Source: Acidobacteriota bacterium
GTDB lineage: Bacteria > Acidobacteriota > Vicinamibacteria > Fen-336
Reading direction: 5' to 3'
Length of the DNA: 64,000 bases
Assembly (NCBI GenBank): GCA_011526565.1
Contig: WYBL01000116.1
Span: 3,019-67,018 of the forward strand
Below are positions 43,991 to 64,000 of the stretch, piece after piece. Position numbers and translations under genes: made by a program. The notes below the pieces were generated by a model, which worked only from the letters and a program-made list of their open reading frames with translations, did not search any database and was not told the DNA's origin. How positions within the stretch are numbered: position 1 is the first letter of the stretch; the number at the start of each line of letters is the position of its first letter.

Positions 43991-44002
43991 AACGTCCGGC
44001 CC

Positions 44003-44428: not shown

Positions 44429-44461
44429 AAGAACGGCAGCCCGGCGCGATACGAACGACGG

Positions 44462-47717: not shown

Positions 47718-47756
47718 TCAAGTTCCCCGTTCGCGCCGTGGACAAGGAGGCGTGCC

Positions 47757-48809: not shown

Positions 48810-49837
48810 TTCTCCTGTTCACCCTGGCGCAGCGCCTTCGACAGCGGTACGGCGAGGCCCACTGGGACCGCCTGCGGGCCTCGTTGGTCGACCTCGCCGA
48901 CGCCTACACCCTGACTCACGGGGCCGCAGCGCTGTGCCTGCCCGACGAGTTCTGGCCTCCAGGCTCGGACGCCAACGCCGTCGAGCTGATCCGTTCCGAG
49001 CTGGAGGCGCGGGCCCCGATCGAAGCGCTCGTGATCATCGGCGGCGACTCCGTAGTCCCGTTCGGGAGGGCGCCCAATCCCGTCGCCGATCGCGTCGCCG
49101 ATCCTGATTCCCTGGTCCTCAGCGACGCGGTCTACGGATCACCGTGGAGTCTTGCAGGAGCCCGCGTGCCCGTGGCGAGAATCCCCGACAGCGACCCGCC
49201 AGAACTGGGTGAACTGCTGTCGCTCCTCGAGGCGGCCCGGCCGGATTCCCGTGGCTCGTCTCGACGGGGCGCATTCGCGGTCGCGAATCCGGAGTGGGAA
49301 GCAGCGACCTGGAGGGCGCTCAAGGGTCACCGGCCGACCGTGCGAGTCGCTCCCCACTGGCACGGCGGTGATCCGGAGTGGCCATCCAACGACGCCGCCC
49401 TCCTCTACTTCAACCTCCACGGGTTCGCTCGACGACCCGAGTGGTTCGGATTCCACGACCGCAGCGGATGGACTCCCGTGCTGCGGCCCGGGAACATCCA
49501 ACGCGAGGCGGTCGCGGGCGCGATCGTCTTCGTGGAGAACTGCTACGGCGGCAACACCGTCGGCCGGTCACGACGCTCCAGCATCTCGCTGGCCCTGCTC
49601 GCCTGTGGCGCGCGGGCGATCATCGCCACCGCAGGCCTGGCGTTCGGAAGCCACCTGCCTTCCATGGAGCACAACGCCGACGCGCTGGCCAGCGCGACAC
49701 TCTCCGCCCTTTCCACTGGCGCCTCGGTTGGCGCAGCGCTGGACCGGGCGCGGCAAGCTCTGCCGGGCGACGACGCGTTCGCAGCCAAGACCCGATCCCA
49801 ATTCCTGATCTTCGGCGATCCCCTCGCCACCCTCTGA
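48806..49837 (+). CDS. Putative clan-CD (caspase/CHAT/gingipain-like) cysteine-peptidase-fold protein
   Basis: GTG overlaps upstream stop (GTGA); His-Gly (ALLYFNLHGF) followed ~45 aa later by hydrophobic strand + Cys (GAIVFVENCYGG): His/Cys dyad spacing typical of clan CD. Weak call. Confidence 0.5.
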   Translation: MILLFTLAQRLRQRYGEAHWDRLRASLVDLADAYTLTHGAAALCLPDEFWPPGSDANAVELIRSELEARAPIEALVIIGGDSVVPFGRAPNPVADRVADPDSLVLSDAVYGSPWSLAGARVPVARIPDSDPPELGELLSLLEAARPDSRGSSRRGAFAVANPEWEAATWRALKGHRPTVRVAPHWHGGDPEWPSNDAALLYFNLHGFARRPEWFGFHDRSGWTPVLRPGNIQREAVAGAIVFVENCYGGNTVGRSRRSSISLALLACGARAIIATAGLAFGSHLPSMEHNADALASATLSALSTGASVGAALDRARQALPGDDAFAAKTRSQFLIFGDPLATL

Positions 49838-49850
49838 TCGGAGACTCGCG

Positions 49851-51707
49851 ATGAGACTGGAATACGTGCTCGCCCTGACCCTCGGAGTCGCTCCGGGCGC
49901 CGCAGCCGAGTCCAACGACCGAAAGGCAAGCCAGTACGTCGTCTTCGACGCTCGGTCCGGCGGCAAGGGGCTTCACCGGTGTGTCGGCAGCCCGGGTGCG
50001 GACTGCCGCGCGCCGAAGACCGACTTCTTCGACAGCCAGGACATCGTCCTGTTCCAGCTCGTCGGCGCTCCCTGCAACACCCGATGGACGTTTCAGCTCG
50101 GCGACGTGGCCGTCCCGGAACCCGAGCCGGGGATACGCGGCCTGGGCGACATGCCATCGCTGGCCAAGGCTCTTGCCGGACCGCCACCGGCGCACGGTTC
50201 TGATGCTCCAGCAGCGCAAGCGGCCGACTCGTGGTCCATCGAAGACATCCTCGGTCGGCTCGTCTCCCGGGAAGGGATCCAGGGCCTCCGGCTCGACATC
50301 GAGGGAGAGAAAGCCAGGCTCGAATCTGAGATCAGGAACCTGGCTGCCGCCGTCGCCGCGTACGAGTACGACGTCCGCATCTTCCTCGCCGACGCCGCGG
50401 TCGAGAACGCGGTTGCCGCGGTTCGCGCGGTCGAGGATGCGGCCGGCAAGCCTCCTGCGGCGGGATGCTCCGGCGCGTACCAGTTGCGCGAAGCTGCGGA
50501 GATGGCCGAGGCGGAACTCTCCCGTGTGGAGGCAAACATCACAACCTCAGGCTTGGGGAGCAAGGCCAGCACTCTGCGGGAGCGGCTGCGCGTGCTCGGA
50601 GCCGAGATTGGCCTTCACGCAGCCCGGGTGGACAGGGCACGCGCCGCGGTCGAGATCGCCCGCTCGGGCCTTGGCTGGGAATGCGAAGCCGCGCCGCAGA
50701 CCACGTCGGCCACCGAATGCGACGCTCCTGTCGAGGTGGGCCTGGAACGCTTGAAGCGAGCGGTGGCCGCCTACGGTGCGACCGCTACGGGCGAGGCTCT
50801 GCGCCGGATATACGACCACTACGAGACGGAGAGGCCTCGCGTCCGATACGCCCTTATGCAAGACCTCGCCGAGCTCGGGGTCGCGCTTTCGAGCACGGCC
50901 GTCGATGGCCAGTTGGGCGCGCAGCGGGATAGCGTTCGTCGCTCCTCGGCATCGCTCGAGACGTGGGGGGCTGGGGCCGACGACCGCCTCCGCGACATGC
51001 GGAAGGCGCTCCGACGCCACTTCGCCGATTCCACCTACGCCTCGACCGTCGACGTGCGCCCTCGATTCACGGGGAACACCGTCCTGAGTCTCAAGGTGCG
51101 GCGCCAGGTATTCGATCCGCTCGCGCCGCCGGCCACCGAGCCTCCCGCCGCCGTCGAAGTGGCGAGTGCATCCTACGAGGTGCACAAGCGGTACCTCTTC
51201 AACGTCGGCGGCGGATTCATGATCAGCGGCATCGGGAACAGGGAATACGCCGTCCGGCAGTATCGACGCCTGGATGCCGACGGGCAGCCCGTCTCCGACG
51301 ACGACGGACCAATCTTCGACAAGAAGCTCGTCGAGTCGGGCTCGGATGACCGGTCGCAGGATTTCGCCCTGACCTTCACCGCCTACCTTCCGCGCCGTCT
51401 CGACACTTTCCACGCGTCGGCGGCGCGCCGACCCACGACTGGGTTGATGGTGGGCTTCTCACTCGAGAAGCCCACGGACAACCTGTACGCGGGCCTCGTT
51501 CTTCAGCCGACCCTGGGCATCCAACTGACGGCCGGGGTTCACTTCGGAAAGCGCTCGGCCCCACAGGATGGCATCGTCCCCGAGGTCACCGTGCTCCCGG
51601 CCGACACGACAGCGCCGCCGATACGAGACGAGTGGGCGAGGGCGCTCTTCTTCAGTATCGGGTTCGACGCCAGCGTGTTCTCGCGGTTGTTCGGGTCGTC
51701 CGAGTAG
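49851..51707 (+). CDS. Secreted hypothetical protein with central coiled coil
   Basis: Signal peptide MRLEYVLALTLGVAPGAAAES; 13 bp after previous gene. Confidence 0.6.
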   Translation: MRLEYVLALTLGVAPGAAAESNDRKASQYVVFDARSGGKGLHRCVGSPGADCRAPKTDFFDSQDIVLFQLVGAPCNTRWTFQLGDVAVPEPEPGIRGLGDMPSLAKALAGPPPAHGSDAPAAQAADSWSIEDILGRLVSREGIQGLRLDIEGEKARLESEIRNLAAAVAAYEYDVRIFLADAAVENAVAAVRAVEDAAGKPPAAGCSGAYQLREAAEMAEAELSRVEANITTSGLGSKASTLRERLRVLGAEIGLHAARVDRARAAVEIARSGLGWECEAAPQTTSATECDAPVEVGLERLKRAVAAYGATATGEALRRIYDHYETERPRVRYALMQDLAELGVALSSTAVDGQLGAQRDSVRRSSASLETWGAGADDRLRDMRKALRRHFADSTYASTVDVRPRFTGNTVLSLKVRRQVFDPLAPPATEPPAAVEVASASYEVHKRYLFNVGGGFMISGIGNREYAVRQYRRLDADGQPVSDDDGPIFDKKLVESGSDDRSQDFALTFTAYLPRRLDTFHASAARRPTTGLMVGFSLEKPTDNLYAGLVLQPTLGIQLTAGVHFGKRSAPQDGIVPEVTVLPADTTAPPIRDEWARALFFSIGFDASVFSRLFGSSE

Positions 51708-51808
51708 TCGGGGGGCGAGAATCACCTGGGGTGTCAACGTCGGGCGAGCGCGCACGAGACCTGGGCAAGGAGGGACAGGCGCGGGTTCGGGCTGGGAGCG
51801 GATCCTGG

Positions 51809-52585
51809 TCAGCGAGCGGGTGCGGGAGGCTCTGCGAAGATCGCGGCGACGAGGTCGAGGCGGCCCGCTTTCCACTTGGCAAAGAGCCAGTTGACCTCCG
51901 GGGCGAGGCTGGCCGCGGCGATGCGTTCCTGGAGGGGCCCCAGCGCTGCGCGAAGGCCGAGCGTGGCTTCGCCGGCCAGGATCTGGAGCTGGGGCCTTCC
52001 TCGCTCCTGCTTGACCGCGGCCACCAGGAAGCCGTCGCCGAGTTCTTTCGGGACTTGCACCTTGGCCGCGCGCAGCAAGGGACCCTGCGGTGGTGCGCCT
52101 GGGTCGCCCGGGCACAGGGTCAGCTTCAGGTCGTGGTCGGCGGGGAGTTCGAGTTCCTTGGGGCTGAGGCCGCGCAGGCTCGACTCGGCGCTTGCGACCA
52201 CCGCCACCGCGCCGCTGCCGCTCGGCCGGTACACCACCCGCCAGTGCGGTGCTGTCCCGCTCCCGTCCTCGTGGGTGGAGACCGCGGTGGAGGCTGACTG
52301 ACCCGCGATCCAACCCGGGTTGTATCCGCAGTCGAGCGAGCCCGACCAGGTGCCGACGCCCGGCTCGCGCCAGCAGACGAAGTGGCCCTGGAACTCGCCG
52401 CACGAGCCACTCGTGCACCACAGGTTCCCGTCGCACCAGGCCTCGACCTGGGCGCAGGGCCACGGCGGCAACCAGCGCTGGCACTCGACCACGCAGTGAT
52501 CGGCGGCCGCGGGCGCGGTCGCCGAGACCAACGTCAGCGTGAGGAAGAGGTCCGTGATTCGAAGCCTTCTTCTCATGCTTCTCAT
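51809..52585 (-). CDS. Secreted Cys-rich hypothetical protein
   Basis: MRSMRRRLRITDLFLTLTLVSATAPAAA signal; 9 Cys in first 80 mature residues; start overlaps upstream gene stop. Confidence 0.5.
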   Translation of the reverse strand: MRSMRRRLRITDLFLTLTLVSATAPAAADHCVVECQRWLPPWPCAQVEAWCDGNLWCTSGSCGEFQGHFVCWREPGVGTWSGSLDCGYNPGWIAGQSASTAVSTHEDGSGTAPHWRVVYRPSGSGAVAVVASAESSLRGLSPKELELPADHDLKLTLCPGDPGAPPQGPLLRAAKVQVPKELGDGFLVAAVKQERGRPQLQILAGEATLGLRAALGPLQERIAAASLAPEVNWLFAKWKAGRLDLVAAIFAEPPAPAR

Positions 52586-52977
52586 CCCTGCCGCCCGCGC
52601 GTGACCACCTCGACCGTGCCGCCGGGCCGCAGGATCAGCTCGATCCGCGCCGCATCCGAGACTTGAAGCACCTGAGTCCACCGCTCCGCCCTCCCGTCGT
52701 TCGACCAACTCACCGTCGCCTGCACGACGCCGGCGTGCGCCCGCACCCGGAGCCTCGGCCCCGTGCCCGTCTCGTGCCCGAGCAACTCGGCCCGCACGCA
52801 CGCCGCATCCACCCTCAGCGTGACGCCAGACGCAGCCCCCGGCCCGCCATTCACGACCTCGACGAGCACTCTGTCGCCGAGGAGGCGGGCGCCGAGCCGC
52901 GGCGCGGCGGCGAGCCCCGCCCCGACCACTGCGAGCGAAGCGACGGCCGCCCAGCGCAACGCCAGGTGGCCACTCAT
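52582..52977 (-). CDS. Small secreted hypothetical protein
   Basis: Signal peptide MSGHLALRWAAVASLAVVGAGLAAAP; ATGA overlaps on both sides. Confidence 0.45.
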   Translation of the reverse strand: MSGHLALRWAAVASLAVVGAGLAAAPRLGARLLGDRVLVEVVNGGPGAASGVTLRVDAACVRAELLGHETGTGPRLRVRAHAGVVQATVSWSNDGRAERWTQVLQVSDAARIELILRPGGTVEVVTRGRQG

Positions 52978-54341
52978 GGCTTCTGGTAGCCGTAGAGCTC
53001 GCGTCGAGCGCCGGCAACCGGGGACATCCAGTCGTCGATCGGGAGACCGGGGAGCGGGCGGCCCCAGAGGTCGCCCCACCTCGCGCCTCGGAGGAAGCTG
53101 ATCGTCCAGCGCTGGACGAGATTCATCAGCGGGAGCGCGGCGTGCAGGGTCATGCCCTTGCGGAACGGGAGGTTCTCGCCGACTCCGAGGAACCCGCCGA
53201 AGTCGCGCTCCGCGACGCCGACCACGGAATCCCGGTCCGCCCACTCAGGAACCGCCCCGTGCAACGGCACGGTACCGTCGCCGAGGTTGTCGCGCCAGGC
53301 GTCGACGTCGGCCGGGGCCCCGTCTTCGCCGCGGTACTCCTGCGACTCCACGTCGAACGCGAAGCGGCCGTCGGCCGCCAGCTTCACACGATGCGCCGTG
53401 CGCTCGTCCAGGCCCACGATCAGCAGCCACTGGCCCGGCTCGGCGAGGGCCGCGCTCGGGTCCTCCTCGTTGACGCTCGCGAGGAAGCTGCGCCCGTCTT
53501 CGAGGCGCTCGCGGAGGTACTTCCACGCGGACTTCATGCGCTGCTCGGCGTTGGAGTTCCTGGGGTCGGTGCTGTGCGTCCGGATGAAGTCGGCGACCGA
53601 CTCGACGATGCTCTCCTGCCAGTTCTTCGCGTTGAAGATCGCCTTCCCCGAGTGCCCCGCCAGCGCTCCTTCGAAGTACGGCAACAGGTGGTAGATCGCG
53701 GGCGTCATGCGGGCCGCCAGGCGCTCGCTGTGCTGCGGCGAGCCGACCATCGAGCCTTCGCCCGTGGCCAGCTTGATCACCGCGTCGACCGCTCCCTGGA
53801 AGGGCGTTCCGATCGTCACCACGCGTCGAACCAGCGGCTTGCCGTTCGGGCCCTTGCAACCCTTGGCGAGAGCCGATGCGATCACCAGACCGCCCATCGA
53901 GTGGCCCACGAGGTCGACCGTCGTCGCCTTCTCTTTCGCGTAGCTCTTCAGGAGGTTGGTGCGGTCGATCACCTCGCGCACGAACTCGCAGAGCTGGTCC
54001 GCCACGACGCGGTTGTCGGCGCGCCAGTCGTAGGCGAACGGGAAGACGGGCACGACTGCCGTCGGCCCGCGATCTTCGCGCAGCGCCGATCGCAGCTCGC
54101 GGATGAACTCCGCGTAGCCCATCTCCGCCGCGTGCGAGGGGACGATCTTCGCCGGCTCCACCGCCTCGAAGCGCAGGTCGTCCGGGTGCATCGCGATGCG
54201 GTGGAACTCCTTGATCGGCCGCCAGCGCAGCGCCTCGATCCCGGGGTCCCAGACGACCTCGGGCGTGGTGGGATAGACGTCGCGGAGCACGGACCCCGTG
54301 ATCCCGTGGACGACGATCACCGGTGGCTGCACCTTCATTGC
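52974..54341 (-). CDS. Alpha/beta-hydrolase, lipase/LCAT-PGAP1-like
   Basis: VIVVHGITGS near N-term; nucleophile elbow GHSMGG; no signal peptide seen. Confidence 0.65.
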   Translation of the reverse strand, partial: AMKVQPPVIVVHGITGSVLRDVYPTTPEVVWDPGIEALRWRPIKEFHRIAMHPDDLRFEAVEPAKIVPSHAAEMGYAEFIRELRSALREDRGPTAVVPVFPFAYDWRADNRVVADQLCEFVREVIDRTNLLKSYAKEKATTVDLVGHSMGGLVIASALAKGCKGPNGKPLVRRVVTIGTPFQGAVDAVIKLATGEGSMVGSPQHSERLAARMTPAIYHLLPYFEGALAGHSGKAIFNAKNWQESIVESVADFIRTHSTDPRNSNAEQRMKSAWKYLRERLEDGRSFLASVNEEDPSAALAEPGQWLLIVGLDERTAHRVKLAADGRFAFDVESQEYRGEDGAPADVDAWRDNLGDGTVPLHGAVPEWADRDSVVGVAERDFGGFLGVGENLPFRKGMTLHAALPLMNLVQRWTISFLRGARWGDLWGRPLPGLPIDDWMSPVAGARRELYGYQKP

Positions 54342-54444
54342 CAGGCCCTCCAGACTCGCTCGTTCATAAAGTATACATAAAGCACACACGGAACGCTCGA
54401 TGGATCGGCTTTGAGCCCCGCGCGAAGGCTCGAGCCTCGGCCCT

Positions 54445-56760
54445 TCAGGGGCGGCGCAGGGTCTCCAACGGGGCTTGCCGTGACGCGGCGACTGCCGGTG
54501 CCAGCGAGGCGGCGGCGGCGCACAGAAGGGTGAACGCCGCCGATGCGGTCAGCGTCGTGAGTTCGAACGACGCCCACTGGAAATGAGCCGACTCGGCCCA
54601 CTGGCCCAGCCACACCGAGACGAGGGTTCCGATCCCGATGCCTGCCATGGCCAGCGTCGCCCCCTCGGCCGCCATCAGGATCGTCAACTCGCGGGGCCCT
54701 GCTCCGACGACGGCCCGGACCGCCATCTCGAAGCGGCGCATCGCGGCGAGGGAGTACACGACGGCAGAGACGCCGACGAGCGCCGCCCCAAGGCCGACGA
54801 GGGCGTACGTGCCGAGCAGTCGCACCTGCGCCAGGAGCGGCGCCTGTGCTCGGGCGACGAGATCCCCGGCGAACACCAGGCCATGGACCGAGGGGCTCTT
54901 CGCCGTCCCGCTGACGGCGTGGATCTGCCGAGCGGCCTCGCCGCAATCGTGGCAGCGCACCAGCAACCACTCCTCGTCGGGGTGGCGACCGCGGGCCGGC
55001 CGACTGCGCGGCAGGTAGCACTGGGGCAGGGGTTCCTGGGCAGCATCGATGCCTCGTACCGGTGCGACGACGCCGATGACCTCGCGCAGGGCCAGTTCGC
55101 CCTCGATGCGGATCTGACGACCCACGGCCGCGACAGCCTGCCCTGGCCGCCGCCCCTCGTCGGCGAACGCCAGGATCAGTACGTCCGCGTCTCCCGGCGC
55201 GAAAGCCCGCCCGGCGAGCAGCCGGATCCCGGTCGCGGCCAGGAAGTCGCCCTCCACGTGCCAGACCTGACAGAGGACCCTCCCGGCCTCCCCGTCGATC
55301 CACACGCCCCCTGCTGACGCGACACCTGGAGGCGCAGACGCGGTCGCCGCGGCCGACACTCCGGGAAGTTGCGCGACCTCGGCCATCAGGGCCTGAGGCG
55401 AGGCGCCCAGGCGCCCGAGCAGCAGGTTCTTCGATTCGTAGCCCAGAGGAATCTCGAGTGCTGCTCTCAGGGTCCATGCGGAGACCAGCGCGCCGTTGAG
55501 CAAGACGACCGCGATGACCGTCTGACTGATCACCAGGAGGCGGCGCGTCCACCGCACCTGCCCTGTGGACGCTCCCCCGCCGTCCCGCAGGCCTTCCGAC
55601 GGAGCCGCGCGCAATGCAACGGCCATCGCGCCGGCGGATGCGAGGAGGACGCTCGGGAACGCCAGACCGAGAGCCGCCCCGCTCGCGACGGCGACGAGAC
55701 GCTCGAGCGGCGGCTGGTGGACCCACCAGGCCGCGAATATCTCGCGTCCGCCGACGATCGAGAGGGAGGCGACCAGCGCCCCCACGACGCCCACTCCGAG
55801 GGCGAGGGAGAACGTCTCGCTGCCGAGCTGCAGCAGGAGGTTTCGCCGCGTCGCGCCGAGAGCCTGCCGCACGGCGAACTCGACGCGGCGCACCGACATC
55901 CGACCCAGCAAGAGAGTGCCCAGGCTCGCGACGGCGGTACCCAGGAGCAAGCCCGAGAGCGCCAGGAGCAGCAGCGCGGGCGCTATCACTCTCTCGCGCG
56001 CCACGTCCACCATCGGCCGGACGAACACGCGCTCGCCGAAGCGCACCCCGGTGCTGCGCGTGTAGAGGGCGTGCAGGCCGTGCAGCAAGCCCCCCAGTTG
56101 CGAACGCGCCGACTCGATGCTGGTCTCGGGCCGCAGGCGCCCGACCCAGCCGTCGCGTCGCACCAGGCCGAACGGATCGTCGTTGCCTCGGGCCCGCCCT
56201 CCTGCACGCGTGCGTGGCGTCCAGATCTCGGTGCCTCCCGGGAAGTCGAAGCCCGCCGGGGCGACACCGACGACGCGGTGAAGGGTGCCTTCCAGCAGGA
56301 TCTGCGCCCCGAGCACGGCCGCCCCGGGACCGAAGTGCCGGTCGCGGAAGGCGGCGCCCACAACGGCCACAGGTTCGTTCGATCGATCCTCCTCGACGCT
56401 GAATGCGCGCCCCGGCAAAGGAACGACCCCGAACACGCTGAAGAAGGCGGCGGAGACAGCGGTGGTCCTGACCTCTCTACGGTGGCCGTCCAGTCGGACC
56501 TCGACGAGTCCGGTCTCGTAGGTCGCCAACGCCGCGAGGCTTCGCGCCTGCCCCCAGTACTCGACGGGGTCCCCGACGAGAGGGTGCGCCATGTTCCCGA
56601 GATGCACGATGCGGTCCGCCGCGGGCACCCCGAGCGGGCGCAGGACCAAGGCATCGACGGCGGCCACCATCGCGCTCGCCACGCCGAGGACGACCCCGAG
56701 GGCGATGGCGACGACGGCCGTACCGCGATGGCGAAGGGCGAGCCGGGCATCGAGGCGCAC
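54445..56760 (-). CDS. Duplicated FtsX-domain orphan permease (MacB-like periplasmic domain + 2x FtsX; ADOP-like), no ATPase partner adjacent
   Basis: N-terminal TM, large periplasmic domain, FtsX-type 4-TM blocks twice (LRQALGATRRNLLLQLGSE... and second copy LRAVVGAGPRELTILMAAEG...). Confidence 0.7.
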   Translation of the reverse strand: MRLDARLALRHRGTAVVAIALGVVLGVASAMVAAVDALVLRPLGVPAADRIVHLGNMAHPLVGDPVEYWGQARSLAALATYETGLVEVRLDGHRREVRTTAVSAAFFSVFGVVPLPGRAFSVEEDRSNEPVAVVGAAFRDRHFGPGAAVLGAQILLEGTLHRVVGVAPAGFDFPGGTEIWTPRTRAGGRARGNDDPFGLVRRDGWVGRLRPETSIESARSQLGGLLHGLHALYTRSTGVRFGERVFVRPMVDVARERVIAPALLLLALSGLLLGTAVASLGTLLLGRMSVRRVEFAVRQALGATRRNLLLQLGSETFSLALGVGVVGALVASLSIVGGREIFAAWWVHQPPLERLVAVASGAALGLAFPSVLLASAGAMAVALRAAPSEGLRDGGGASTGQVRWTRRLLVISQTVIAVVLLNGALVSAWTLRAALEIPLGYESKNLLLGRLGASPQALMAEVAQLPGVSAAATASAPPGVASAGGVWIDGEAGRVLCQVWHVEGDFLAATGIRLLAGRAFAPGDADVLILAFADEGRRPGQAVAAVGRQIRIEGELALREVIGVVAPVRGIDAAQEPLPQCYLPRSRPARGRHPDEEWLLVRCHDCGEAARQIHAVSGTAKSPSVHGLVFAGDLVARAQAPLLAQVRLLGTYALVGLGAALVGVSAVVYSLAAMRRFEMAVRAVVGAGPRELTILMAAEGATLAMAGIGIGTLVSVWLGQWAESAHFQWASFELTTLTASAAFTLLCAAAASLAPAVAASRQAPLETLRRP

Positions 56761-56787
56761 GGGAGATGGTAGCGGCCCAGTGCGGCC

Positions 56788-57015
56788 CTATGAACGAGGC
56801 GCCGGCTCCCAACGCCCGGCACGGCAGACGAGGATGCTGCTCTGGCCCCTGATCAGAGCACCCTCGGAATACGTGGCCCCCTCGAACGTGCATCCGGCGG
56901 GCTTGGCGGCAGGCAGCCCTGGCGACTGGTCGGAAGCCCTCCAGAGGGCGAGGGCAGCCAACAGACTGACGATGCCCAGGACCCCGATCGCCAGACGGAC
57001 GTGCGGCTGCTTCAC
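56788..57015 (-). CDS. Small signal-anchored hypothetical protein (75 aa, 2 Cys)
   Basis: Hydrophobic LAIGVLGIVSLLAALALW; preferred over overlapping Arg-rich ORF 56477..57022. Confidence 0.35.
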   Translation of the reverse strand: MKQPHVRLAIGVLGIVSLLAALALWRASDQSPGLPAAKPAGCTFEGATYSEGALIRGQSSILVCRAGRWEPAPRS

Positions 57016-57018
57016 AGT

Positions 57019-57606
57019 TCACCCCTCCTGTTCGACGCCATCCTCACGTTGCAGCCCCGGCAGACGAACTCCGAAATAGGCCTCCACTTCGCCCTGCAGC
57101 GCACCCGAGAGAGCACCGCCCCATATCTTCTCGACTCGTCCATCGGCGCTGACCACGATGAGGGTCGGCGTGGCCGCGAGCCCGAACTCCTGCGCGGTCG
57201 GACGTTCGAGACCGACAACTTCGAACCCCAGCAGTGTTTCCTCTGCTGTCACCTTCTCGCGGGACGCGCTCAAGGAAAGCCCTTTGAACTGATATCGCCC
57301 CGTGCTAGCGGCGGCCAGGACGCGGATGTTCGCGAGATTGCGACGGCACCAGACGCACTCCTCGGACTGCACGTAGAGAACACTCGGCAGGGCGCCTCCC
57401 AGCGTGAGCGGTTGTCCCCGTCCGTGGCGATCGGTTACCGGGATCTCCGGAACTTGCCTGCCGACACTCAGGGCCTTGGGAGGTCGACCCCGGTCATCAG
57501 GTGGTTGCCTGAGCTTGAGGCCGAGACCCACATTCGCGGCAAGGGAGGCGCCCAAGGCGATGAGCAACAGCGCCACGGCCAGATTGCTGTCGAGAAGCCG
57601 ATCCAT
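57019..57606 (-). CDS. TlpA/redoxin-like membrane-anchored thiol-disulfide oxidoreductase
   Basis: N-terminal TM LAVALLLIALGASLAANV; thioredoxin-fold CxxC (SEECVWCRRNL). Confidence 0.6.
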   Translation of the reverse strand: MDRLLDSNLAVALLLIALGASLAANVGLGLKLRQPPDDRGRPPKALSVGRQVPEIPVTDRHGRGQPLTLGGALPSVLYVQSEECVWCRRNLANIRVLAAASTGRYQFKGLSLSASREKVTAEETLLGFEVVGLERPTAQEFGLAATPTLIVVSADGRVEKIWGGALSGALQGEVEAYFGVRLPGLQREDGVEQEG

Positions 57607-57690
57607 GCAGGCTCGCATGGTGGCACCTCCTTTCCGGGGGCTGACGGGTGGCGTACTCCGGCCAGCTGGCGCTGGCCGGAGTACAGGTTG

Positions 57691-57957
57691 TCAGCAGAGC
57701 TCGCAGGATCCCCAGGTTCCGTCGCTCTTGCACTTCTGGCTCTTGCCGCTCGAGCAGACGCTCTGGACGCAGGAACCGGTGCTGTAGCAGACACCTGCGT
57801 ACTGGCAGTTGCAGCTACCGCCACTGCCCCCGCCATCCCCAGGATCCTGGTAGTACGGCCCATCGGCCAACACCGAAAACGCGCCGCCGGCACCGACGAT
57901 CATCAGCAGCGTCAGCGCCAGGACGAATCCCCTTCGCGCCCGTCGTGTCCTTCCCAT
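57691..57957 (-). CDS. Secreted Gly/Cys-rich peptide precursor (88 aa; ~57-aa mature region with 10 Cys)
   Basis: Signal MGRTRRARRGFVLALTLLMIVGAGGAFSVLA; mature DGPYYQDPGDGGGSGGSCNCQYAGVCYSTGSCVQSVCSSGKSQKCKSDGTWGSCELC; RBS GGAGTGA ~6 nt upstream. Confidence 0.55.
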   Translation of the reverse strand: MGRTRRARRGFVLALTLLMIVGAGGAFSVLADGPYYQDPGDGGGSGGSCNCQYAGVCYSTGSCVQSVCSSGKSQKCKSDGTWGSCELC

Positions 57958-58261
57958 CGTTCACTCCCTCTGGCGGGCTCACCCGCTGGGCCAAGTGTAT
58001 ACCAAGGGGCCGCTTTTCGACACCCTCTAGTCGATCATGAGCCGCGGCACTGACGGGTGCCCGCGAGTCACGCCGGGTAAGGGTCCGGCGGCGGAGTGAA
58101 TCCGCCGGCGGATTCTCTGGCGTCTGGGCGGGAGGACTTGGGCCCGCCCTCCCACCCGCTGACAGTCTCCACCCCCAAGCCCCCGGGCGCACGCCACGTG
58201 GTCCCTGCGCCGGCGGGGTGTTGTCCACGGGCACAACCACCCGGCTGACAGTGCGATCGCG

Positions 58262-58645
58262 TCAGGGGGCGGCGGAGGCTGGTTCAGCGCGCTGCCCCCC
58301 GCGCAGGCTGCCGAGCCGAGCGATGAGTACCTTGCATTTCAGGGCAGCGACTTGCCTGCGCCACTCGGGGCCCTGGTCCTGAAGCACGTTGAGGGCTCGC
58401 TCATAGCTCGCCTCGGCCTCTTGGAACGCGCCGCTATCGAAGTGAGTGTCCCCTTCCCGGGAGTACAGGCCGGCTGCACCTGCGAGCCCCGCCGATTCAC
58501 TGGACAAGTCCGTCTGCTGCGTGGGCATCACCCCGACCGGCAAGAGGAACATCAGCGGCAGCGCCACAACCGCAAGAAGGACCACTGCGGCACAACCGAC
58601 GGGAGTGATCCAACTTGTTCCGCGCCCCTCCGCAGACGTGGTCAC
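58262..58645 (-). CDS. Small single-TM protein with TPR-like helical tail, unknown function
   Basis: TM VGCAAVVLLAVVALPLMFLLPVGV. Confidence 0.45.
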   Translation of the reverse strand: MTTSAEGRGTSWITPVGCAAVVLLAVVALPLMFLLPVGVMPTQQTDLSSESAGLAGAAGLYSREGDTHFDSGAFQEAEASYERALNVLQDQGPEWRRQVAALKCKVLIARLGSLRGGQRAEPASAAP

Positions 58646-58663
58646 TGGCTCTTGCGCTTTGCG

Positions 58664-59116
58664 TCACGCGCCGCAGGAGGTGGGGCTGGCCTGGAGTCGA
58701 TCGATCATCTCGATCGCCTTGAGCAGTTCTCTTTGGAGGACTTCGAGCGCCTTGGTGTTTTCGTCGTCCAGCTGCTTCTGCACGGTCCGGGCGTGGTCAA
58801 GGATCCTGTCGATTTCTGCAGACGCAGGTGCGTGGGCCTTCGCGAGTTCTTCGGCGGCGATCTGCTGGAACTTCGCGTCCGCGGCAAGCTGGCGGGCTAC
58901 TCCCTGCGCGATCGTCTCGCGGAGGCTGGAGAGTTGATACAGGATGCCCGCACCCCCACACAGCAGGCCCACGACCAGCCATGTCTTGAAGAACCGCACG
59001 ACACGCTCGCGGAGGTCCCACTCGACCTTCCGGATGGCGCGAAGCAGCAGTGCCGCTTCCTCCTCCGTCAGAGTGTCCGGCAAGGCCGGAGCCTTCGCTT
59101 TCTGGTCATCGCTCAT
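58664..59116 (-). CDS. Small single-TM hypothetical protein
   Basis: TM WLVVGLLCGGAGILY; 18-bp gaps to neighbours. Confidence 0.5.
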   Translation of the reverse strand: MSDDQKAKAPALPDTLTEEEAALLLRAIRKVEWDLRERVVRFFKTWLVVGLLCGGAGILYQLSSLRETIAQGVARQLAADAKFQQIAAEELAKAHAPASAEIDRILDHARTVQKQLDDENTKALEVLQRELLKAIEMIDRLQASPTSCGA

Positions 59117-59134
59117 GTAACACCCCGTTTCCGA

Positions 59135-60253
59135 TCAAGCAGGCAGGCAACAGACGAATCCGCTGACCAGCCACAGGCCCAGCAAGCCGAGGGCTGTCAG
59201 AAGGAGGCCCAGTGCTCCGTAGCGCAGGAGGCCCGCGCGAAGCAGGCGCGGCGGTGGACGCCAAGGGGGCTCGGGCAGGGCTCGCGCGGGGACTGCGGCT
59301 GAGACGTGATCGCCTGGGACGCTGAGGAACGGTCCCCACGTGTGCTCGAAGACGTCCGGCATTCGAGCCTCGTCGAAGAAGTCGCTGTGGCTGAAGTCCG
59401 CGTCGAAGGCGTGGTGGATGCGAGCCCTGTCATCGAAACCGCGGCAGCCGGACGGGCCCGATTCGGGGATGAAGTAGACGGCGACGCTCGCCCACACGTC
59501 CCGGCCCGCCGCGTGACACAACACCGCTTCCACGCGGCCGGCTTCGATCAGCGGTGCCCAGCCGAAGTCCGGGCGGACGATGCTCCCCGCCAGGATCACC
59601 CGGCCCACTTCGATCGACGAGTCGGCCAGCAGAGCCTGGGCGAGCAGCCATGTGCCGAAGCTGTGGGCGATCACGTCCGGACGGCCACCAAACCCCGCCC
59701 CCAGGGCGCGCGCCTGGATCACGCGAAACCGCTGAACCAGATGTCGCACGAGCTGTCGCTGGCGGAATCTCACCAGCACCCCTGGCCTCACGACGCCGTA
59801 CTTGTAGACGAAGACCGGGACGGAGTGGCCGTAGGTCGTGGCGAGGTGCCAGGCGAGAGACTCCTGCCACGATCCGGTCGTGTTCATGCCATGGAGCGTG
59901 AGGACCCAGGGGACGTCGCGGGTCGGGGGCTCGTGGCGCTCGAAAAAGGTCTCGGGCCGGGGCTCGTCCCCCGGCGCGAAGACCCGCTCACATTCGGAGC
60001 ATGCGGGCGTCGAAGGCTCGTCCAGCTCGAGGCGCCGTTCGCACGGGCAGACGAATCCCGCGCGCGCCTGGAGAAGACCCGCGGCCGCAAGATCCGCGAG
60101 CAGCGCCGCGGCCTCAGTGAGCGGCGCGTTCGTCCGAGTTGCGAGGCTCTCCGCTGTGAGCGACAGCGGACCACCCGCCAGGAACGCCCCGCGGCACGAC
60201 TCGACCAGTCGCCCGGAATACCGCCCCGCAATGACAGGCCAGGGGTCCGTCAC
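59135..60253 (-). CDS. Alpha/beta-hydrolase (putative esterase/lipase) with N-terminal Zn-ribbon and C-terminal TM anchor
   Basis: GTG overlaps upstream stop (GTGA); CPCERRLELDEPSTPACSEC (4-Cys ribbon); LTLHGMNTTG; nucleophile elbow IAHSFG; C-terminal TM LGLLLTALGLLGLWLVSGFVCC. Confidence 0.6.
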   Translation of the reverse strand: MTDPWPVIAGRYSGRLVESCRGAFLAGGPLSLTAESLATRTNAPLTEAAALLADLAAAGLLQARAGFVCPCERRLELDEPSTPACSECERVFAPGDEPRPETFFERHEPPTRDVPWVLTLHGMNTTGSWQESLAWHLATTYGHSVPVFVYKYGVVRPGVLVRFRQRQLVRHLVQRFRVIQARALGAGFGGRPDVIAHSFGTWLLAQALLADSSIEVGRVILAGSIVRPDFGWAPLIEAGRVEAVLCHAAGRDVWASVAVYFIPESGPSGCRGFDDRARIHHAFDADFSHSDFFDEARMPDVFEHTWGPFLSVPGDHVSAAVPARALPEPPWRPPPRLLRAGLLRYGALGLLLTALGLLGLWLVSGFVCCLPA

Positions 60254-61302: not shown

Positions 61303-61306
61303 GGCG

Positions 61307-62518: not shown

Positions 62519-62527
62519 CGGCAACCG

Positions 62528-62923
62528 GTGGGTCCCGTGCCTGTACCGCTTCACGGACCGGAGCAGGCAGCCTCGGCGGCGGCCGGCAATGCGCTGGTGC
62601 TGGAAGCGTCCACGAAGTCTGCCGAGAAACTGGGGCGACACCTCAGCGCTTTTCACTTGAAGGTGAAGGCTCCTGACCGTGAGTTGCCCTTGGAGTCTGC
62701 CTTCCAGGGCAGCAAGGTGTTCGAACGCGGCGGCCCCTTCACGGATCTCTACGCCGCTGGGGCCGTGGATGCCAAGCGGGATCCTCGGCTGCGAGATTCG
62801 GGACGGGTCATTGCGTTCGATTTTGCGGGCCATCGCTTCCCGGTCGAGCCGCGCACCGCCTTCTACGACTGGCTCTACATCGACACGCGACGTCCACCTC
62901 CGCCCTGGTTCGGGGCCCTGTAG
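62528..62923 (+). CDS. Small hypothetical protein on opposite strand between unknown operon and AAA ATPase gene
   Basis: Protein-like C-terminal 130 aa (LSAFHLKVKAPDRELPLESAFQGSKVFERGGPFTDLYAAGAVDAKRD...FYDWLYIDTRRPP); GTG start; lower GC3 than core genes. Confidence 0.35.
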   Translation: MGPVPVPLHGPEQAASAAAGNALVLEASTKSAEKLGRHLSAFHLKVKAPDRELPLESAFQGSKVFERGGPFTDLYAAGAVDAKRDPRLRDSGRVIAFDFAGHRFPVEPRTAFYDWLYIDTRRPPPPWFGAL

Positions 62924-62995
62924 GCCTCGGCGCGCGGGGGATCGGGGACGAGGATGTGGCGGTAGCGAGGGGGGCTCCTCGGCCGTTGCCCTGGG

Positions 62996-63982: not shown

Positions 63983-64000
63983 GACTCGTTCCCCCCGGGC

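What the first reader, a model, noticed from the sequence alone, without database searches (positions are those of the whole stretch)
51809..57957. Seven-gene co-directional cluster: secreted 10-Cys peptide, TlpA-like oxidoreductase, orphan duplicated FtsX permease, lipase and two more secreted proteins
All seven genes lie on the minus strand with short gaps or ATGA overlaps. Order: Cys/Gly-rich peptide precursor (57691-57957), membrane-anchored CxxC thioredoxin-fold protein (57019-57606), tiny signal-anchored protein, ADOP-type permease (771 aa, two FtsX blocks, no ATPase), LCAT/PGAP1-like lipase, small secreted protein, secreted protein with a 9-Cys N-terminal module. A dedicated thiol-disulfide oxidoreductase next to two disulfide-rich secreted products and an export-type permease looks like a production/folding/export module for a disulfide-rich peptide (antimicrobial or signalling) and a lipolytic exoenzyme. 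ADOP-type orphan permeases have no assigned substrates as far as I know, so the genetic linkage is itself informative.
Basis: partly seen in the sequence, partly recalled or inferred. Interest (0 to 1): 0.75.

Follow-up and report, generated by a model that had tools for sequence, protein, structure and literature searches.

The report
Disulfide-rich peptide folding cassette with orphan permease
The seven genes are two separate units, and the first four (a small secreted 8-cysteine protein, its own disulfide enzyme, a helper and an orphan membrane permease) belong to a widespread, undescribed gene module of soil Acidobacteria that gives a first functional lead on three large orphan protein families.

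Summary
All seven minus-strand genes are real, but they are not one unit. Relatives carry g1-g4 (window 54438-58004) without g5-g7, and g5-g7 without g1-g4.

The g1-g4 cassette encodes:
- g1: a Sec-type secreted protein with 8 Cys, not 10.
- g2: a membrane-anchored ResA/TlpA-fold oxidoreductase with a C-x-W-C active site.
- g3: a membrane-anchored DUF1496 domain.
- g4: an 8-TM duplicated MacB/FtsX (ADOP-like) permease with no ATPase gene nearby.

The oxidoreductase defines a large clade, labelled Acidobacteriota in 7 of 9 genome hits (582 clusters at E<=1e-30). In about 34 of 41 lineages it sits next to a small, hypervariable, signal-bearing protein with an even Cys count. The chance expectation is about 0.03 per locus. 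In half of the lineages the next gene is ADOP, TIGR03435 or TIGR03436 (p about 1e-12). All five ADOP-linked lineages carry g1-type peptides.

Most likely the cassette folds a secreted disulfide-rich peptide, which the permease then exports or defends against. This resembles bacteriocin loci. That function is inferred, not shown.

The lipase has no signal peptide. It belongs, with g6 and g7, to a separate lineage-specific module.

The parts
54438..58004 (-). Four-gene cassette g1-g4, the unit that is conserved and relocated as a block
   Evidence: blastn of L015 against the window: L015 673-4233 matches window 58004-54438 at 87% identity. L015 then continues into the IetA-like gene (window 63967-63876) rather than g5. 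No flanking repeats were found.
57691..57957 (-). g1: 88-aa precursor of a secreted mini-protein. It has a Sec-type signal (predicted cleavage ...VLA|DG), a Gly/Asp/Pro-rich linker and a 40-aa core with 8 Cys and a DUF1496-like motif.
   Evidence: GGGAG RBS. No Pfam or NCBIfam hit. An HMM built from other lineages' peptides scores g1 at 12.2 bits, and 0 of 500 shuffles reach that score. dN/dS is 0.36, and all 8 Cys are conserved in L015.
57653..57684 (-). Perfect 14-15 bp stem-loop just after the g1 stop and before the g2 RBS. It has no U-tract.
   Evidence: I10. Folding gives -40.8 kcal/mol with z -4.7. The hairpin is conserved in L015 with z -4.1. Stems of 10 bp or more follow the peptide gene in 8 of 18 lineages tested.
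57019..57618 (-). g2: 199-aa thiol-disulfide oxidoreductase with an N-terminal membrane anchor and a periplasmic ResA/TlpA-fold domain. The active site is C88-V-W-C91, with a cis-Pro at T150-P151.
   Evidence: The clade has 582 clusters (50% identity) at E<=1e-30, and C-x-W-C occurs in over 90% of the top 147.
56788..57015 (-). g3: 75-aa protein with an N-terminal membrane anchor and a single DUF1496 domain (2 Cys). It appears to be a detached accessory domain of the oxidoreductase.
   Evidence: Pfam DUF1496 at 23.2 bits, above the cut-off of 20.2. The same domain is fused to the C-terminus of the oxidoreductase in L022 and in 9 of 147 family representatives. It starts 3 nt after the g2 stop.
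54445..56760 (-). g4: 771-aa ADOP-like duplicated MacB/FtsX permease. It has 8 TM helices (4+4) and two periplasmic MacB_PCD domains. The coupling-helix motif is conserved in both halves. No ATPase, adaptor or outer-membrane gene is in the cassette.
   Evidence: The AF2 model has pLDDT 81. The best full-length PDB match is E. coli YbbP (9GE6, E 1e-16), followed by MacB, LolCE, HrtB and BceB. The only ABC-ATPase-like ORF in the window lies 14.6 kb away.
52974..54338 (-). g5: 454-aa LCAT/PGAP1-type alpha/beta-hydrolase (GHSMGG) with no signal peptide or TM segment. It belongs to a separate module.
   Evidence: It is present without g1-g4 in L081. No PDB sequence hit and no PADLOC hit.
52582..52977 (-). 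g6: 131-aa protein with an N-terminal hydrophobic anchor or signal. Its start forms an ATGA overlap with the g5 stop. No family assigned.
   Evidence: A g6-like 128-aa gene precedes the g7 homologue in L078.
51809..52585 (-). g7: 258-aa secreted protein with an 8-Cys N-terminal module and one further Cys. Its start forms an ATGA overlap with the g6 stop. It is restricted to this lineage.
   Evidence: Homologues have 62% identity or more only. No Pfam, NCBIfam or PADLOC hit.

Best explanation
Window 54438-58004 (minus strand) is a self-contained cassette for making and handling a secreted disulfide-rich mini-protein.

Proposed pathway:
1. g1 is exported by Sec and its signal is cleaved. The 8-Cys core needs four disulfides.
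2. g2 is a membrane-anchored periplasmic ResA/TlpA-fold oxidoreductase of a C-x-W-C clade labelled mostly Acidobacteriota. It acts as the dedicated oxidase or isomerase for g1.
3. g3 is an anchored DUF1496 domain that is fused to the enzyme in other members. It acts as the enzyme's accessory or substrate-recognition domain.
4. A hairpin after g1 probably sets a high peptide-to-machinery transcript ratio.
5. The periplasmic domains of g4 then handle the folded peptide by mechanotransmission. g4 is a single-chain pseudo-dimeric type VII ABC-type permease, presumably powered by an ATPase encoded elsewhere. It either expels the peptide from the envelope or keeps it off the producer's membrane (export or self-protection).

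The logic is that of a bacteriocin-like or secreted-effector locus.

Shown: the gene models, the folds, the cassette boundaries, the conserved pairing and the linkage statistics. Inferred: the direction of redox catalysis, g1 as the client, the role of the permease and the biological activity of the peptide.

g5-g7 are an unrelated neighbouring module.
For: Cassette unity:
- L015 shares exactly g1-g4 (87% nt identity) in a different slot of the island.
- L081 has g5-g7 without g1-g4.

Peptide-oxidoreductase pairing:
- In 41 lineages (80% oxidoreductase identity), a small signal-bearing Cys-rich ORF lies on the same strand beside the gene. A strict filter finds it in 23 of 40 lineages; after inspection the count is about 34 of 41.
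- The rate of such ORFs elsewhere in the same loci is 0.012 per kb per strand.
- The Cys count of the mature part is even in 30 of 35 peptides.
- The peptides are hypervariable and fall into at least 3 sequence types, while the enzyme is conserved.

g3:
- It is a Rosetta-stone fusion partner of the enzyme.
- g1 and g3 share the DUF1496-like core.

Fold of g2:
- It matches ResA, FetE, CcmG, DsbE, SdbA and TlpA.
- Oxidases exist in this fold class: SdbA and Mtb DsbE (PMC10783030; PMC5112981).

Permease linkage:
- The gene directly downstream is ADOP, TIGR03435 or TIGR03436 in 15 of 30 evaluable lineages. These families make up 4.8% of other genes in the same loci (p = 1.4e-12).
- All 5 ADOP-linked lineages have DUF1496-like peptides, against 3 of 21 others (Fisher p = 8.5e-4).

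g4 structure:
- The model matches YbbP and MacB.
- The coupling-helix motif R-x-x-E-x-x-x-R-x-A-L-G-A is nearly invariant in both halves.

Precedents:
- STII goes through Sec, then DsbA, then MacAB-TolC.
- YknXYZ, AS-48EFGH and BceAB handle antimicrobial peptides (PMC5985334).

Hairpin.
Against: - There is no experimental datum on any component.
- The fold class of g2 is mostly reductive (ResA, CcmG, TlpA). No DsbB/VKOR-type reoxidant and no CcdA/DsbD reductant is in the cassette, so the redox direction is open.
- g4 has no ATPase, no membrane-fusion adaptor and no outer-membrane channel nearby. A MacAB-TolC-like export route is therefore not encoded locally.
- The nearest relatives of g4 (52% and 32% identity) are not next to an oxidoreductase.
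- The oxidoreductase-linked ADOPs are only 25-30% identical to each other. The permease was recruited repeatedly rather than co-inherited.
- In most lineages the third gene is not a permease at all but TIGR03435, TIGR03436 or one of two unnamed families. A transport role therefore cannot be general.
- No immunity gene, regulator or antimicrobial hallmark is present.
- The peptide-type motif used for the Fisher test was defined after seeing the data.
Confidence: 0.5

Rival explanations
1. The peptide is a periplasmic partner of the permease, not its cargo. As with FtsX-EnvC, LolCDE-LolA or YbbAP-TesA, the folded g1 (and/or the anchored g3) docks on the periplasmic domains of the ADOP. It gives the ADOP its specificity or output. 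g2 only ensures correct folding of this partner.
For: All characterised type VII ABC systems work through a periplasmic partner (PMC12646458; PMC5985334). The best structural match of g4 is YbbP, which binds one small periplasmic protein on top of its two periplasmic domains. There is a specific association of DUF1496-like peptides with ADOP. g3 has the same domain and is membrane-tethered next to the permease.
Against: The peptides are hypervariable, which suits warfare or signalling better than a structural partner. The same oxidoreductase-peptide pair occurs with non-permease third genes. No co-evolution or complex prediction could be run.
Confidence: 0.2
2. The peptide is an extracellular signal (pheromone-like). 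Envelope sensors read it. ADOP, TIGR03435 (a domain that, from my own knowledge of its curated family description, is often fused to BlaR1-type sensors) and TIGR03436 would be the receptor side.
For: An ECF sigma factor gene lies directly upstream of the peptide in two lineages (L035/L037, L061). A BlaR1-like TIGR03435 protein lies 1.5 kb from the oxidoreductase in L027. BceB-type permeases act as sensors (PMC5985334).
Against: The window cassette contains no regulator. The nearest ECF sigma factor (47040-47618) is separated from it by opposite-strand genes. No evidence of autoregulation.
Confidence: 0.1
3. One reading: all seven genes form one production, folding and export module for the peptide, a lipolytic exoenzyme and a second disulfide-rich secreted protein.
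For: The genes are co-directional with short gaps in this strain and in relatives with over 90% identity. YbbAP-TesA is a precedent for a duplicated FtsX permease working with a lipid hydrolase (PMC12646458). g7 is Cys-rich and secreted.
Against: The two halves occur separately in relatives. g5 has no signal peptide, unlike the periplasmic TesA. No lipase follows the ADOP in any of the other ADOP-linked lineages. The 106-nt g4-g5 spacer is unique to this arrangement.
Confidence: 0.05
4. This is a redox or metal-homeostasis module. g2 is a TlpA-like reductase that keeps a Cys-rich periplasmic metal-binding peptide (g1) reduced, and the permease effluxes the metal-peptide complex.
For: TlpA reduces ScoI and CoxB for copper delivery, and TlpA complexes are among the structural matches. 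FetE, an iron-uptake-associated thioredoxin, is a top hit.
Against: Even Cys parity in 30 of 35 peptides argues for all-disulfide proteins. The peptides have no His/Met metal motifs and are hypervariable. No cytochrome, cox or metal-transport genes recur in the 41 lineages.
Confidence: 0.07
5. The link between the peptide-oxidoreductase pair and the ADOP is chance adjacency, because ADOP genes are very abundant in Acidobacteria.
For: ADOP genes are common in these genomes: L078 carries two unrelated copies within 20 kb. The oxidoreductase-linked ADOPs are not a clade.
Against: The first-downstream, same-strand position is filled in 4 independent lineages, plus a fifth lineage (L029) where the ADOP lies 3.9 kb downstream after two glycosyltransferase genes. 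Enrichment over the local background gives p = 1.4e-12 for the three families together. The block g1-g4 is inherited and relocated as one piece. All ADOP-linked peptides are of one type.
Confidence: 0.05

Closest known systems
Heat-stable enterotoxin STII pathway of E. coli (Sec, then DsbA, then MacAB-TolC)
   Same: A small Sec-exported peptide gets its disulfides in the periplasm. A MacB-type (type VII ABC) permease then handles it from the periplasmic side (PMC5985334). MacB is the closest solved sequence relative of g4.
   Different: - STII uses the housekeeping DsbA, whereas this peptide has a dedicated ResA/TlpA-fold enzyme encoded beside it.
- MacB has a fused ATPase and needs MacA and TolC.
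- g4 is a single-chain duplicated permease with no ATPase, adaptor or outer-membrane channel gene nearby.
Bacteriocin loci with dedicated thiol-disulfide oxidoreductases (sublancin sunA-sunT-bdbA-sunS-bdbB; glycocin F gcc cluster; pediocin PedC/BrcD). Recalled from my own knowledge, not retrieved here.
   Same: A gene for a small Cys-containing secreted peptide lies next to a thioredoxin-fold maturation gene and a transporter. There is a hairpin after the structural gene. Glycosyltransferase genes lie near the pair in some relatives (L009-L011, L029, L036).
   Different: - Those systems are Gram-positive. They use double-glycine leaders and C39-peptidase ABC exporters.
- Here the signal is Sec-type and there is no C39 or ABC exporter.
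- The window cassette has no glycosyltransferase.
- NCBIfam finds no PedC/BrcD-type or other match for g2.
ResA / TlpA / CcmG / StoA / SdbA class of membrane-anchored extracytoplasmic thioredoxins
   Same: N-terminal anchor, thioredoxin fold with CxxC and a cis-Pro loop. TM-score is about 0.7 to ResA and CcmG.
   Different: - The active-site signature is a distinct C-x-W-C followed by (R/A)-R-N-L, with a conserved C-terminal ...VEA-x-F-x-V-x-LPG motif.
- The genomic partner is a hypervariable mini-protein, not cytochrome c, cox or spore-cortex genes.
- It scores below the Pfam cut-off and has no NCBIfam model.
YbbAP-TesA of E. coli (type VII ABC with a duplicated permease and a periplasmic partner)
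   Same: It is the best full-length structural match of the g4 model (9GE6, E 1e-16). It has a pseudo-symmetric single-chain permease with two Porter/Sabre periplasmic domains, and a small periplasmic protein as functional partner.
   Different: - YbbP has 10 TM helices and an adjacent ATPase gene, ybbA.
- g4 has 8 TM helices and no ATPase gene nearby.
- TesA is an exported SGNH hydrolase. The neighbouring g5 is a signal-less LCAT-type hydrolase that is not syntenic with ADOP in relatives.
ADOP family (TIGR03434), together with the Acidobacterial paralogous families TIGR03435 (DUF3738) and TIGR03436
   Same: Architecture, lineage and the lack of an ATPase gene all match the ADOP definition.
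   Different: - g4 scores 323 bits against the curated cut-off of 622, so it is a divergent member.
- ADOPs are typically next to PadR-type regulators, as seen in L078. g4 is instead in a peptide/oxidoreductase cassette.
- The literature searches found no functional study of these families.

Membership tests
ResA/TlpA-like extracytoplasmic thioredoxins (g2) | Thioredoxin fold with CxxC at the start of helix 1 and a cis-Pro loop | tested here: met
   C88-V-W-C91 and T150-P151 are invariant or nearly invariant in A2. The profile against PDB gives ResA, StoA and SdbA at E about 1e-8. The AF2 domain has pLDDT 85-93, and Foldseek matches ResA, FetE and CcmG with TMt about 0.7.
ResA/TlpA-like extracytoplasmic thioredoxins (g2) | N-terminal membrane anchor placing the domain outside the cytoplasm | tested here: met
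   Hydrophobic segment at residues 13-31 and a modelled helix at 2-35. The orientation is inferred.
ResA/TlpA-like extracytoplasmic thioredoxins (g2) | Passes a curated family model | tested here: not met
   Pfam Thioredoxin_2 scores 21.4 bits against a cut-off of 27. There is no NCBIfam hit at E<=0.1.
ResA/TlpA-like extracytoplasmic thioredoxins (g2) | Reductive role coupled to CcdA/DsbD and cytochrome c or cox maturation genes | tested here: not met
   No such genes are in the cassette or recur in the 41 lineages. The redox direction itself cannot be tested in silico.
ADOP, TIGR03434 (g4) | Two FtsX permease modules, each with a MacB-type periplasmic domain, in one polypeptide | tested here: met
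   Pfam finds MacB_PCD twice and FtsX twice. There are 8 TM helices and two periplasmic domains of about 220 aa.
ADOP, TIGR03434 (g4) | No fused or adjacent ABC ATPase; Acidobacterial lineage | tested here: met
   No ATPase is present in the cassette or in any strain's neighbourhood. The only Walker-A/LSGGQ-like ORF in the window lies 14.6 kb away. The source is a Vicinamibacteria MAG.
ADOP, TIGR03434 (g4) | Score at or above the curated NCBIfam cut-off | tested here: not met
   322.8 bits against a cut-off of 622.3, although the match is full length (positions 16-801 of 803).
DUF1496, PF07383 (g3 and g1) | Pfam gathering score | tested here: met
   g3 scores 23.2 bits against 20.2. g1 itself gets no Pfam hit. 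The related peptide of L036 scores 18.9 bits, which is sub-threshold. g1 matches only a home-made HMM (12.2 bits, 0 of 500 shuffles reach it). g1 is therefore 'DUF1496-like', not a demonstrated member.
MacAB-TolC-type tripartite exporter | ATPase, membrane-fusion adaptor and outer-membrane channel | tested here: not met
   None is encoded in or next to the cassette. A 32%-identical relative, P0058, does have a divergent CusB/YknX-like adaptor gene.
Class II / glycocin-type bacteriocin locus | Double-glycine leader, C39-peptidase ABC exporter, immunity gene (and an S-/O-glycosyltransferase for glycocins) | tested here: not met
   g1 has a Sec-type signal. No C39 peptidase, ABC exporter or glycosyltransferase is in the cassette. 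An immunity gene cannot be recognised. Antimicrobial activity cannot be tested here.
LCAT/PGAP1-like alpha/beta-hydrolases (g5) | Pfam gathering score and a GxSxG nucleophile elbow | tested here: met
   LCAT scores 47 bits against 21, and PGAP1 scores 32.7 against 24.3. The motif is G-H-S-M-G-G. Secretion is not supported, because there is no signal peptide or TM segment.

The most novel reading that the evidence does not exclude
The C-x-W-C oxidoreductase plus a hypervariable disulfide-rich mini-protein is an undescribed two-gene system found widely in Acidobacteriota, with hundreds of clusters. Its variable third gene is drawn mainly from the three big orphan Acidobacterial families: ADOP/TIGR03434, TIGR03435/DUF3738 and TIGR03436. 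Those families would then be the exporters, immunity factors or receptors of a large hidden repertoire of disulfide-rich peptides used for warfare or communication by soil Acidobacteria.
Probability: 0.3. Interest if true: 0.8.

Novelty: new variant of a known kind. Interest (0 to 1): 0.62.

Why it matters
Acidobacteria are among the most abundant soil bacteria. Their largest paralogous protein families (ADOP, TIGR03435, TIGR03436) have no known function, and the literature searches here found essentially nothing on them.

A statistically solid genetic link now ties these families to a dedicated disulfide-forming enzyme and a diverse set of small secreted Cys-rich proteins. That gives a concrete, testable handle on what these families act on.

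It also points to an untapped pool of disulfide-stabilised secreted peptides, which could be antimicrobials or signals. Each comes with its matched folding catalyst, which is practical for heterologous production.

For type VII ABC biology, an ATPase-less single-chain permease with an apparently intact coupling helix and a candidate periplasmic client is a useful new test case.

Tried and rejected
- Consensus promoter and terminator scan of 51400-58700: no promoter-like site and only chance-level terminators.
- Rfam scan of 51000-59500: no match.
- Repeat search around the cassette: no terminal direct or inverted repeats that would mark a transposon-like element. Only the g1-g2 hairpin stood out.
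- PADLOC: no hit for g5, g6, g7 or the neighbours n1-n4. Only the AAA gene at the window end hits (IetA).
- g6: the DUF1905 hit is far below the cut-off and was rejected.
- g5: no sequence relative in the PDB.
- Oxidoreductase-linked ADOPs as a dedicated subfamily: rejected. They are 25-30% identical to each other, and the nearest relatives of g4 lack the oxidoreductase.
- ADOP periplasmic cysteines as the clients of g2: inconclusive. The counts are 4-10 Cys against a family median of 3.
- Word-index protein search: found only 4 clusters for g2. This was misleadingly small, because the exhaustive HMM search found 582 at E<=1e-30.
- Tailoring-type enzymes near some relatives (GT2/GT4, carbamoyltransferase, sulfotransferase-like, JmjC, radical SAM): noted but not recurrent enough to call the peptides modified.
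- Structure prediction of g1, g3, g6 and g7: not attempted, because both jobs went to g2 and g4.

Full report
SOURCE AND GENE MODELS

The window has about 70% G+C. Proteins identical or more than 90% identical to its proteins are annotated in NCBI as coming from Vicinamibacteria (Acidobacteriota) MAGs.

On the minus strand I find seven genes:
- g1: 57691-57957 (88 aa)
- g2: 57019-57618 (199 aa)
- g3: 56788-57015 (75 aa, GTG start)
- g4: 54445-56760 (771 aa, GTG start)
- g5: 52974-54338 (454 aa)
- g6: 52582-52977 (131 aa)
- g7: 51809-52585 (258 aa)

g1, g2 and g3 have clear Shine-Dalgarno sequences. Gene callers used for public assemblies predict the same seven products in several metagenomes that hold nearly identical contigs.

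The intergenic distances are 72 nt (g1/g2), 3 nt (g2/g3), 27 nt (g3/g4) and 106 nt (g4/g5). Only g5/g6 and g6/g7 overlap as ATGA.

Three details of the finding need correction. g1 has 8 cysteines, not 10. g7 has 8 Cys in its N-terminal module plus one later. g5 has no signal peptide and no hydrophobic segment at all.

DOMAIN ASSIGNMENTS

- g2 is a thioredoxin-fold protein with an N-terminal membrane anchor and the active site C-V-W-C. Pfam Thioredoxin_2 is below its cut-off, and NCBIfam has no model for it. A profile of the family finds ResA, StoA and SdbA in the PDB at E about 1e-8. An AlphaFold model (domain pLDDT 85-93) superposes on ResA, FetE, CcmG, DsbE, SdbA and TlpA. 'TlpA-like' is therefore right at the fold level.
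- g3 passes the Pfam threshold for DUF1496.
- g4 has two MacB_PCD and two FtsX domains. It aligns end to end with the ADOP model TIGR03434 but reaches only half the curated score. It has eight TM helices (4+4) and two periplasmic domains of about 220 residues. Its model (pLDDT 81) matches E. coli YbbP best over the full length. YbbP is the duplicated permease of YbbAP-TesA. MacB, LolCE, HrtB and BceB follow.
- g5 is an LCAT/PGAP1-type alpha/beta-hydrolase.
- g1, g6 and g7 match no curated family.

THE SEVEN GENES ARE TWO MODULES

A relative whose oxidoreductase is 83% identical (L015) aligns with the window at 87% nucleotide identity from 58004 to 54438. That span runs from 47 nt upstream of the g1 start to 7 nt past the g4 stop. 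L015 then continues into the start of the IetA-like AAA ATPase gene, which in the window lies 6 kb upstream of g1.

Conversely, an approximately 82%-identical relative (L081) joins the gene at window 61303-62457 directly to g5-g6-g7. It lacks window 54332-61302 entirely, and that segment includes g1-g4.

g7 has homologues only at 62% identity or more. The most distant one (L078) sits with a g6-like gene but with no lipase and no g1-g4.

So g1-g4 is a discrete cassette that is shuffled within a variable island. g5-g7 is a separate, lineage-specific module, translationally coupled within itself. I found no terminal repeats that would explain how the cassette moves.

All four cassette genes are under purifying selection between the window and L015. 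dN/dS is 0.36, 0.21, 0.26 and 0.23 for g1 to g4.

THE CONSERVED CORE: OXIDOREDUCTASE PLUS A SMALL CYS-RICH SECRETED PROTEIN

The word-index search found only four clusters for g2. An exhaustive profile search found 582 clusters (50% identity) at E<=1e-30 that match over the full length. More than 90% of the top 147 keep C-x-W-C.

Pattern-based scans retrieved 9 genomic loci. Seven are labelled Acidobacteriota (Bryobacterales, Pyrinomonadaceae, Terriglobales, Acidobacteriaceae). Two are labelled Heliomicrobium, a label I did not verify. The scans also retrieved 52 soil and peat metagenome loci. Together with the loci found earlier, these make 41 lineages at 80% oxidoreductase identity.

A strict automatic filter looked for an ORF of 40-150 aa with a hydrophobic N-terminus and at least 4 Cys in the tail. 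The ORF had to lie on the same strand within 1.5 kb upstream or 1 kb downstream. The filter finds such an ORF in 23 of 40 evaluable lineages. Inspection of the rest raises this to about 34 of 41, and most of the remainder are contigs with no room. Elsewhere in the same loci such ORFs occur 6 times in 248 kb, both strands counted. That gives about 0.03 expected per neighbourhood.

The peptides are hypervariable and fall into at least three sequence types:
- Type A has a DUF1496-like core, C-x-Y-x-G-x-x-Y-S-x-G...Q-x-C-x-x-G-x-W. g1 belongs here.
- Type B has CC-x-x-S-x-D-C...NYC.
- Type C is 120-160 aa long with 14-16 Cys.

After the hydrophobic region the number of Cys is even in 30 of 35 peptides. 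This is what is expected if all cysteines are paired in disulfides.

G3

The DUF1496 domain that g3 carries on its own membrane anchor is fused to the C-terminus of the oxidoreductase in L022 and in 9 of the 147 best family representatives. This Rosetta-stone relation, plus the 3-nt spacing, makes g3 an accessory domain of g2.

An HMM built only from other lineages' type-A peptides scores g1 at 12.2 bits and g3 at 14.5 bits. No shuffle out of 500 reaches either score. The secreted peptide and the anchored accessory domain therefore share one small fold. The similarity is weak, and g1 itself gets no Pfam hit.

THE THIRD GENE

Directly downstream of the oxidoreductase on the same strand lies one of the following:
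- a TIGR03435/DUF3738 protein in about 10 lineages;
- an ADOP in 4 lineages, plus one more 3.9 kb downstream after two glycosyltransferase genes;
- a TIGR03436 VWA protein in 3 lineages;
- one of two unnamed secreted families of about 500 and 600 aa, or a third small family.

I counted one locus per lineage. The three named Acidobacterial families fill the first downstream position in 15 of 30 cases. They make up 9 of 186 other genes in the same loci (binomial p = 1.4e-12).

The ADOPs involved are only 25-30% identical to one another. The nearest relatives of g4 (52% and 32% identity) are not next to an oxidoreductase. The permease has therefore been recruited several times rather than co-inherited.

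Even so, all five ADOP-linked lineages carry type-A peptides, against 3 of 21 others (Fisher p = 8.5e-4). The motif was defined after seeing the data, so this needs an independent test.

A HAIRPIN AFTER THE PEPTIDE GENE

A perfect 14-15 bp stem with a 4-nt loop lies between the g1 stop and the g2 RBS (57653-57684). The spacer folds at -40.8 kcal/mol with z -4.7. The hairpin is conserved in L015. It has no U-tract.

Stems of 10 bp or more follow the peptide gene in 8 of 18 lineages examined. I did not run a matched control on other spacers.

From general knowledge of lantibiotic and bacteriocin operons, such hairpins let the structural gene be expressed in excess over the downstream genes. That is a lead, not a demonstration.

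HOW IT MOST LIKELY WORKS

Shown: the anatomy, the folds, the cassette boundaries and the linkage statistics.

Inferred:
1. g1 is exported by Sec and cleaved after VLA.
2. g2, helped by g3, introduces or reshuffles its four disulfides.
3. The periplasmic domains of g4 handle the folded peptide.

The fold class of g2 contains both reductants (ResA, CcmG, TlpA) and oxidases (SdbA, M. tuberculosis DsbE; PMC10783030 and PMC5112981). The direction of catalysis is therefore open.

For g4, the motif R-x-x-E-x-x-x-R-x-A-L-G-A between TM2/TM3 and TM6/TM7 is nearly invariant across ADOPs. In MacB and YbbP this position is the coupling helix that docks the ATPase (PMC5985334; PMC12646458). I therefore infer an ATPase encoded elsewhere. 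The only ABC-ATPase-like ORF in the window is 14.6 kb away.

Type VII ABC systems do not carry substrates across the inner membrane. They act on periplasmic clients or partners:
- STII after DsbA (MacAB-TolC);
- antimicrobial peptides (YknXYZ, AS-48EFGH, BceAB);
- EnvC, LolA and TesA.

Two readings follow. Either g4 expels or detoxifies the peptide (export or self-protection), or the peptide is a periplasmic partner of g4. The peptides are hypervariable, and the cassette sits in a shuffled island that also carries an IetA-like defence gene. I rate this reading only about 0.5, because the cassette has no adaptor or outer-membrane component, and because in most lineages the third gene is not a permease.

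G5-G7

g5 is a cytoplasmic-looking LCAT/PGAP1 hydrolase. g6 and g7 are exported proteins without relatives outside this lineage. In L081 they follow the gene that lies next to the IetA-like ATPase in the window. Their role is unknown.

The YbbAP-TesA precedent, a duplicated FtsX permease with a lipid hydrolase, is tempting. It is not supported here, for three reasons: TesA is exported and g5 is not, no other ADOP-linked lineage has a lipase, and the two modules separate in relatives.

COMPARISON WITH KNOWN SYSTEMS AND NOVELTY

The logic is known from bacteriocin loci and from STII: a secreted disulfide peptide, a dedicated thioredoxin-fold enzyme and a MacB-type permease.

Several things appear to be new:
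- the C-x-W-C clade itself, which has no Pfam or NCBIfam model;
- its near-obligate pairing with Sec-dependent, hypervariable, even-Cys mini-proteins in a Gram-negative phylum;
- the DUF1496 accessory domain;
- the link to ADOP, TIGR03435 and TIGR03436. Full-text searches returned two incidental mentions of ADOP and none of TIGR03435/DUF3738.

I class it as a new variant of a known kind.

CAVEATS

- Gene calling in the related loci was a simple longest-ORF heuristic.
- Lineages were dereplicated only by oxidoreductase identity.
- The loci come from a pattern-based scan that samples about 40 of more than 500 clusters.
- Background rates were taken from the flanks of the same loci.
- Nothing here is experimental.

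Noticed in passing
window 62996-64000 (-), running off the window end: An AAA ATPase that strongly matches IetA of the Iet anti-phage system (PADLOC 236 bits; Pfam AAA). The next gene (61307-62995, 562 aa) has no family hit and is not a recognisable IetS protease.
   Followed up: partly
window 61307-62995 (-) compared with L003 971-3389: In a 97-99% identical strain (L003), the 562-aa ORF is split into 182-aa and 379-aa genes by about 750 bp of extra DNA. The extra DNA carries an opposite-strand NADAR-DarT1-like ORF. The window version may be a deletion fusion.
   Followed up: partly
window about 44000-64000 compared with 1-44000: Third-position G+C of the genes drops from 0.94-0.98 to 0.71-0.92, and overall G+C drops from about 0.73 to about 0.68. 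The content of this stretch is rearranged between close relatives. It looks like a variable, possibly defence-type island.
   Followed up: partly
window 59135-60250 (-): A 371-aa protein with a Cys-rich N-terminal segment, an alpha/beta-hydrolase-like 'AHSFG' motif and a C-terminal TM helix. It has no Pfam or PADLOC hit. It is a second hydrolase-like gene in the island.
   Followed up: no
window 44465-47618 (-): An ECF sigma factor (193 aa) followed by an 861-aa protein with GAF and Ser/Thr kinase domains. The pair is conserved next to g5-g7 in L081 as well.
   Followed up: no
window 54360-54400 (-), in the g4-g5 spacer: An unusually A+T-rich stretch (GTGTGTGCTTTATGTATACTTTATGAAC) in a 70% G+C genome, preceded by a 7-bp GC hairpin right after the g4 stop. 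This roughly 100-nt spacer is shared neither with L015 nor with L081. It could hold the g5 promoter.
   Followed up: partly
g1 residues 3-15 (window about 57913-57951): The n-region of the g1 signal contains R-R-A-R-R-G-F-V-L, which loosely resembles a twin-arginine (Tat) motif. Other lineages' peptides mostly lack it, so I treated the signal as Sec-type.
   Followed up: no
L009-L011, L017, L024, L029, L036 (related loci): Genes for possible peptide-tailoring enzymes lie close to the peptide-oxidoreductase pair in some lineages. They include GT2-like and GT4 glycosyltransferases, a carbamoyltransferase, a sulfotransferase-like protein, a JmjC protein and a radical SAM enzyme. They do not recur often enough to interpret.
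   Followed up: partly
L018, L021/L057, L041-L044 (family 'F6', about 500 aa); L009, L019, L055 (family 'F5', about 610 aa, 18 Cys): Two further protein families without any Pfam hit recur directly downstream of the oxidoreductase. F6 goes with the type-B (CC...NYC) peptides.
   Followed up: partly
protein P0175 (506 aa, from the exhaustive search): An oxidoreductase of this clade is joined in one ORF to a TIGR03435/DUF3738 protein that still has its own signal-like segment. This is either a true fusion or a read-through or assembly artefact.
   Followed up: no
L083 6546-10427 (relative of g4, 32% identity): This ADOP-like permease is divergently paired with a CusB/YknX-type membrane-fusion adaptor gene. 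Some ADOP-like proteins may therefore work in tripartite pumps. MbnB/TglH-like and methyltransferase genes lie nearby.
   Followed up: no
L082 379-4931: The closest non-self relative of g4 (52% identity) occurs as one of two tandem ADOP genes whose coding regions overlap.
   Followed up: no
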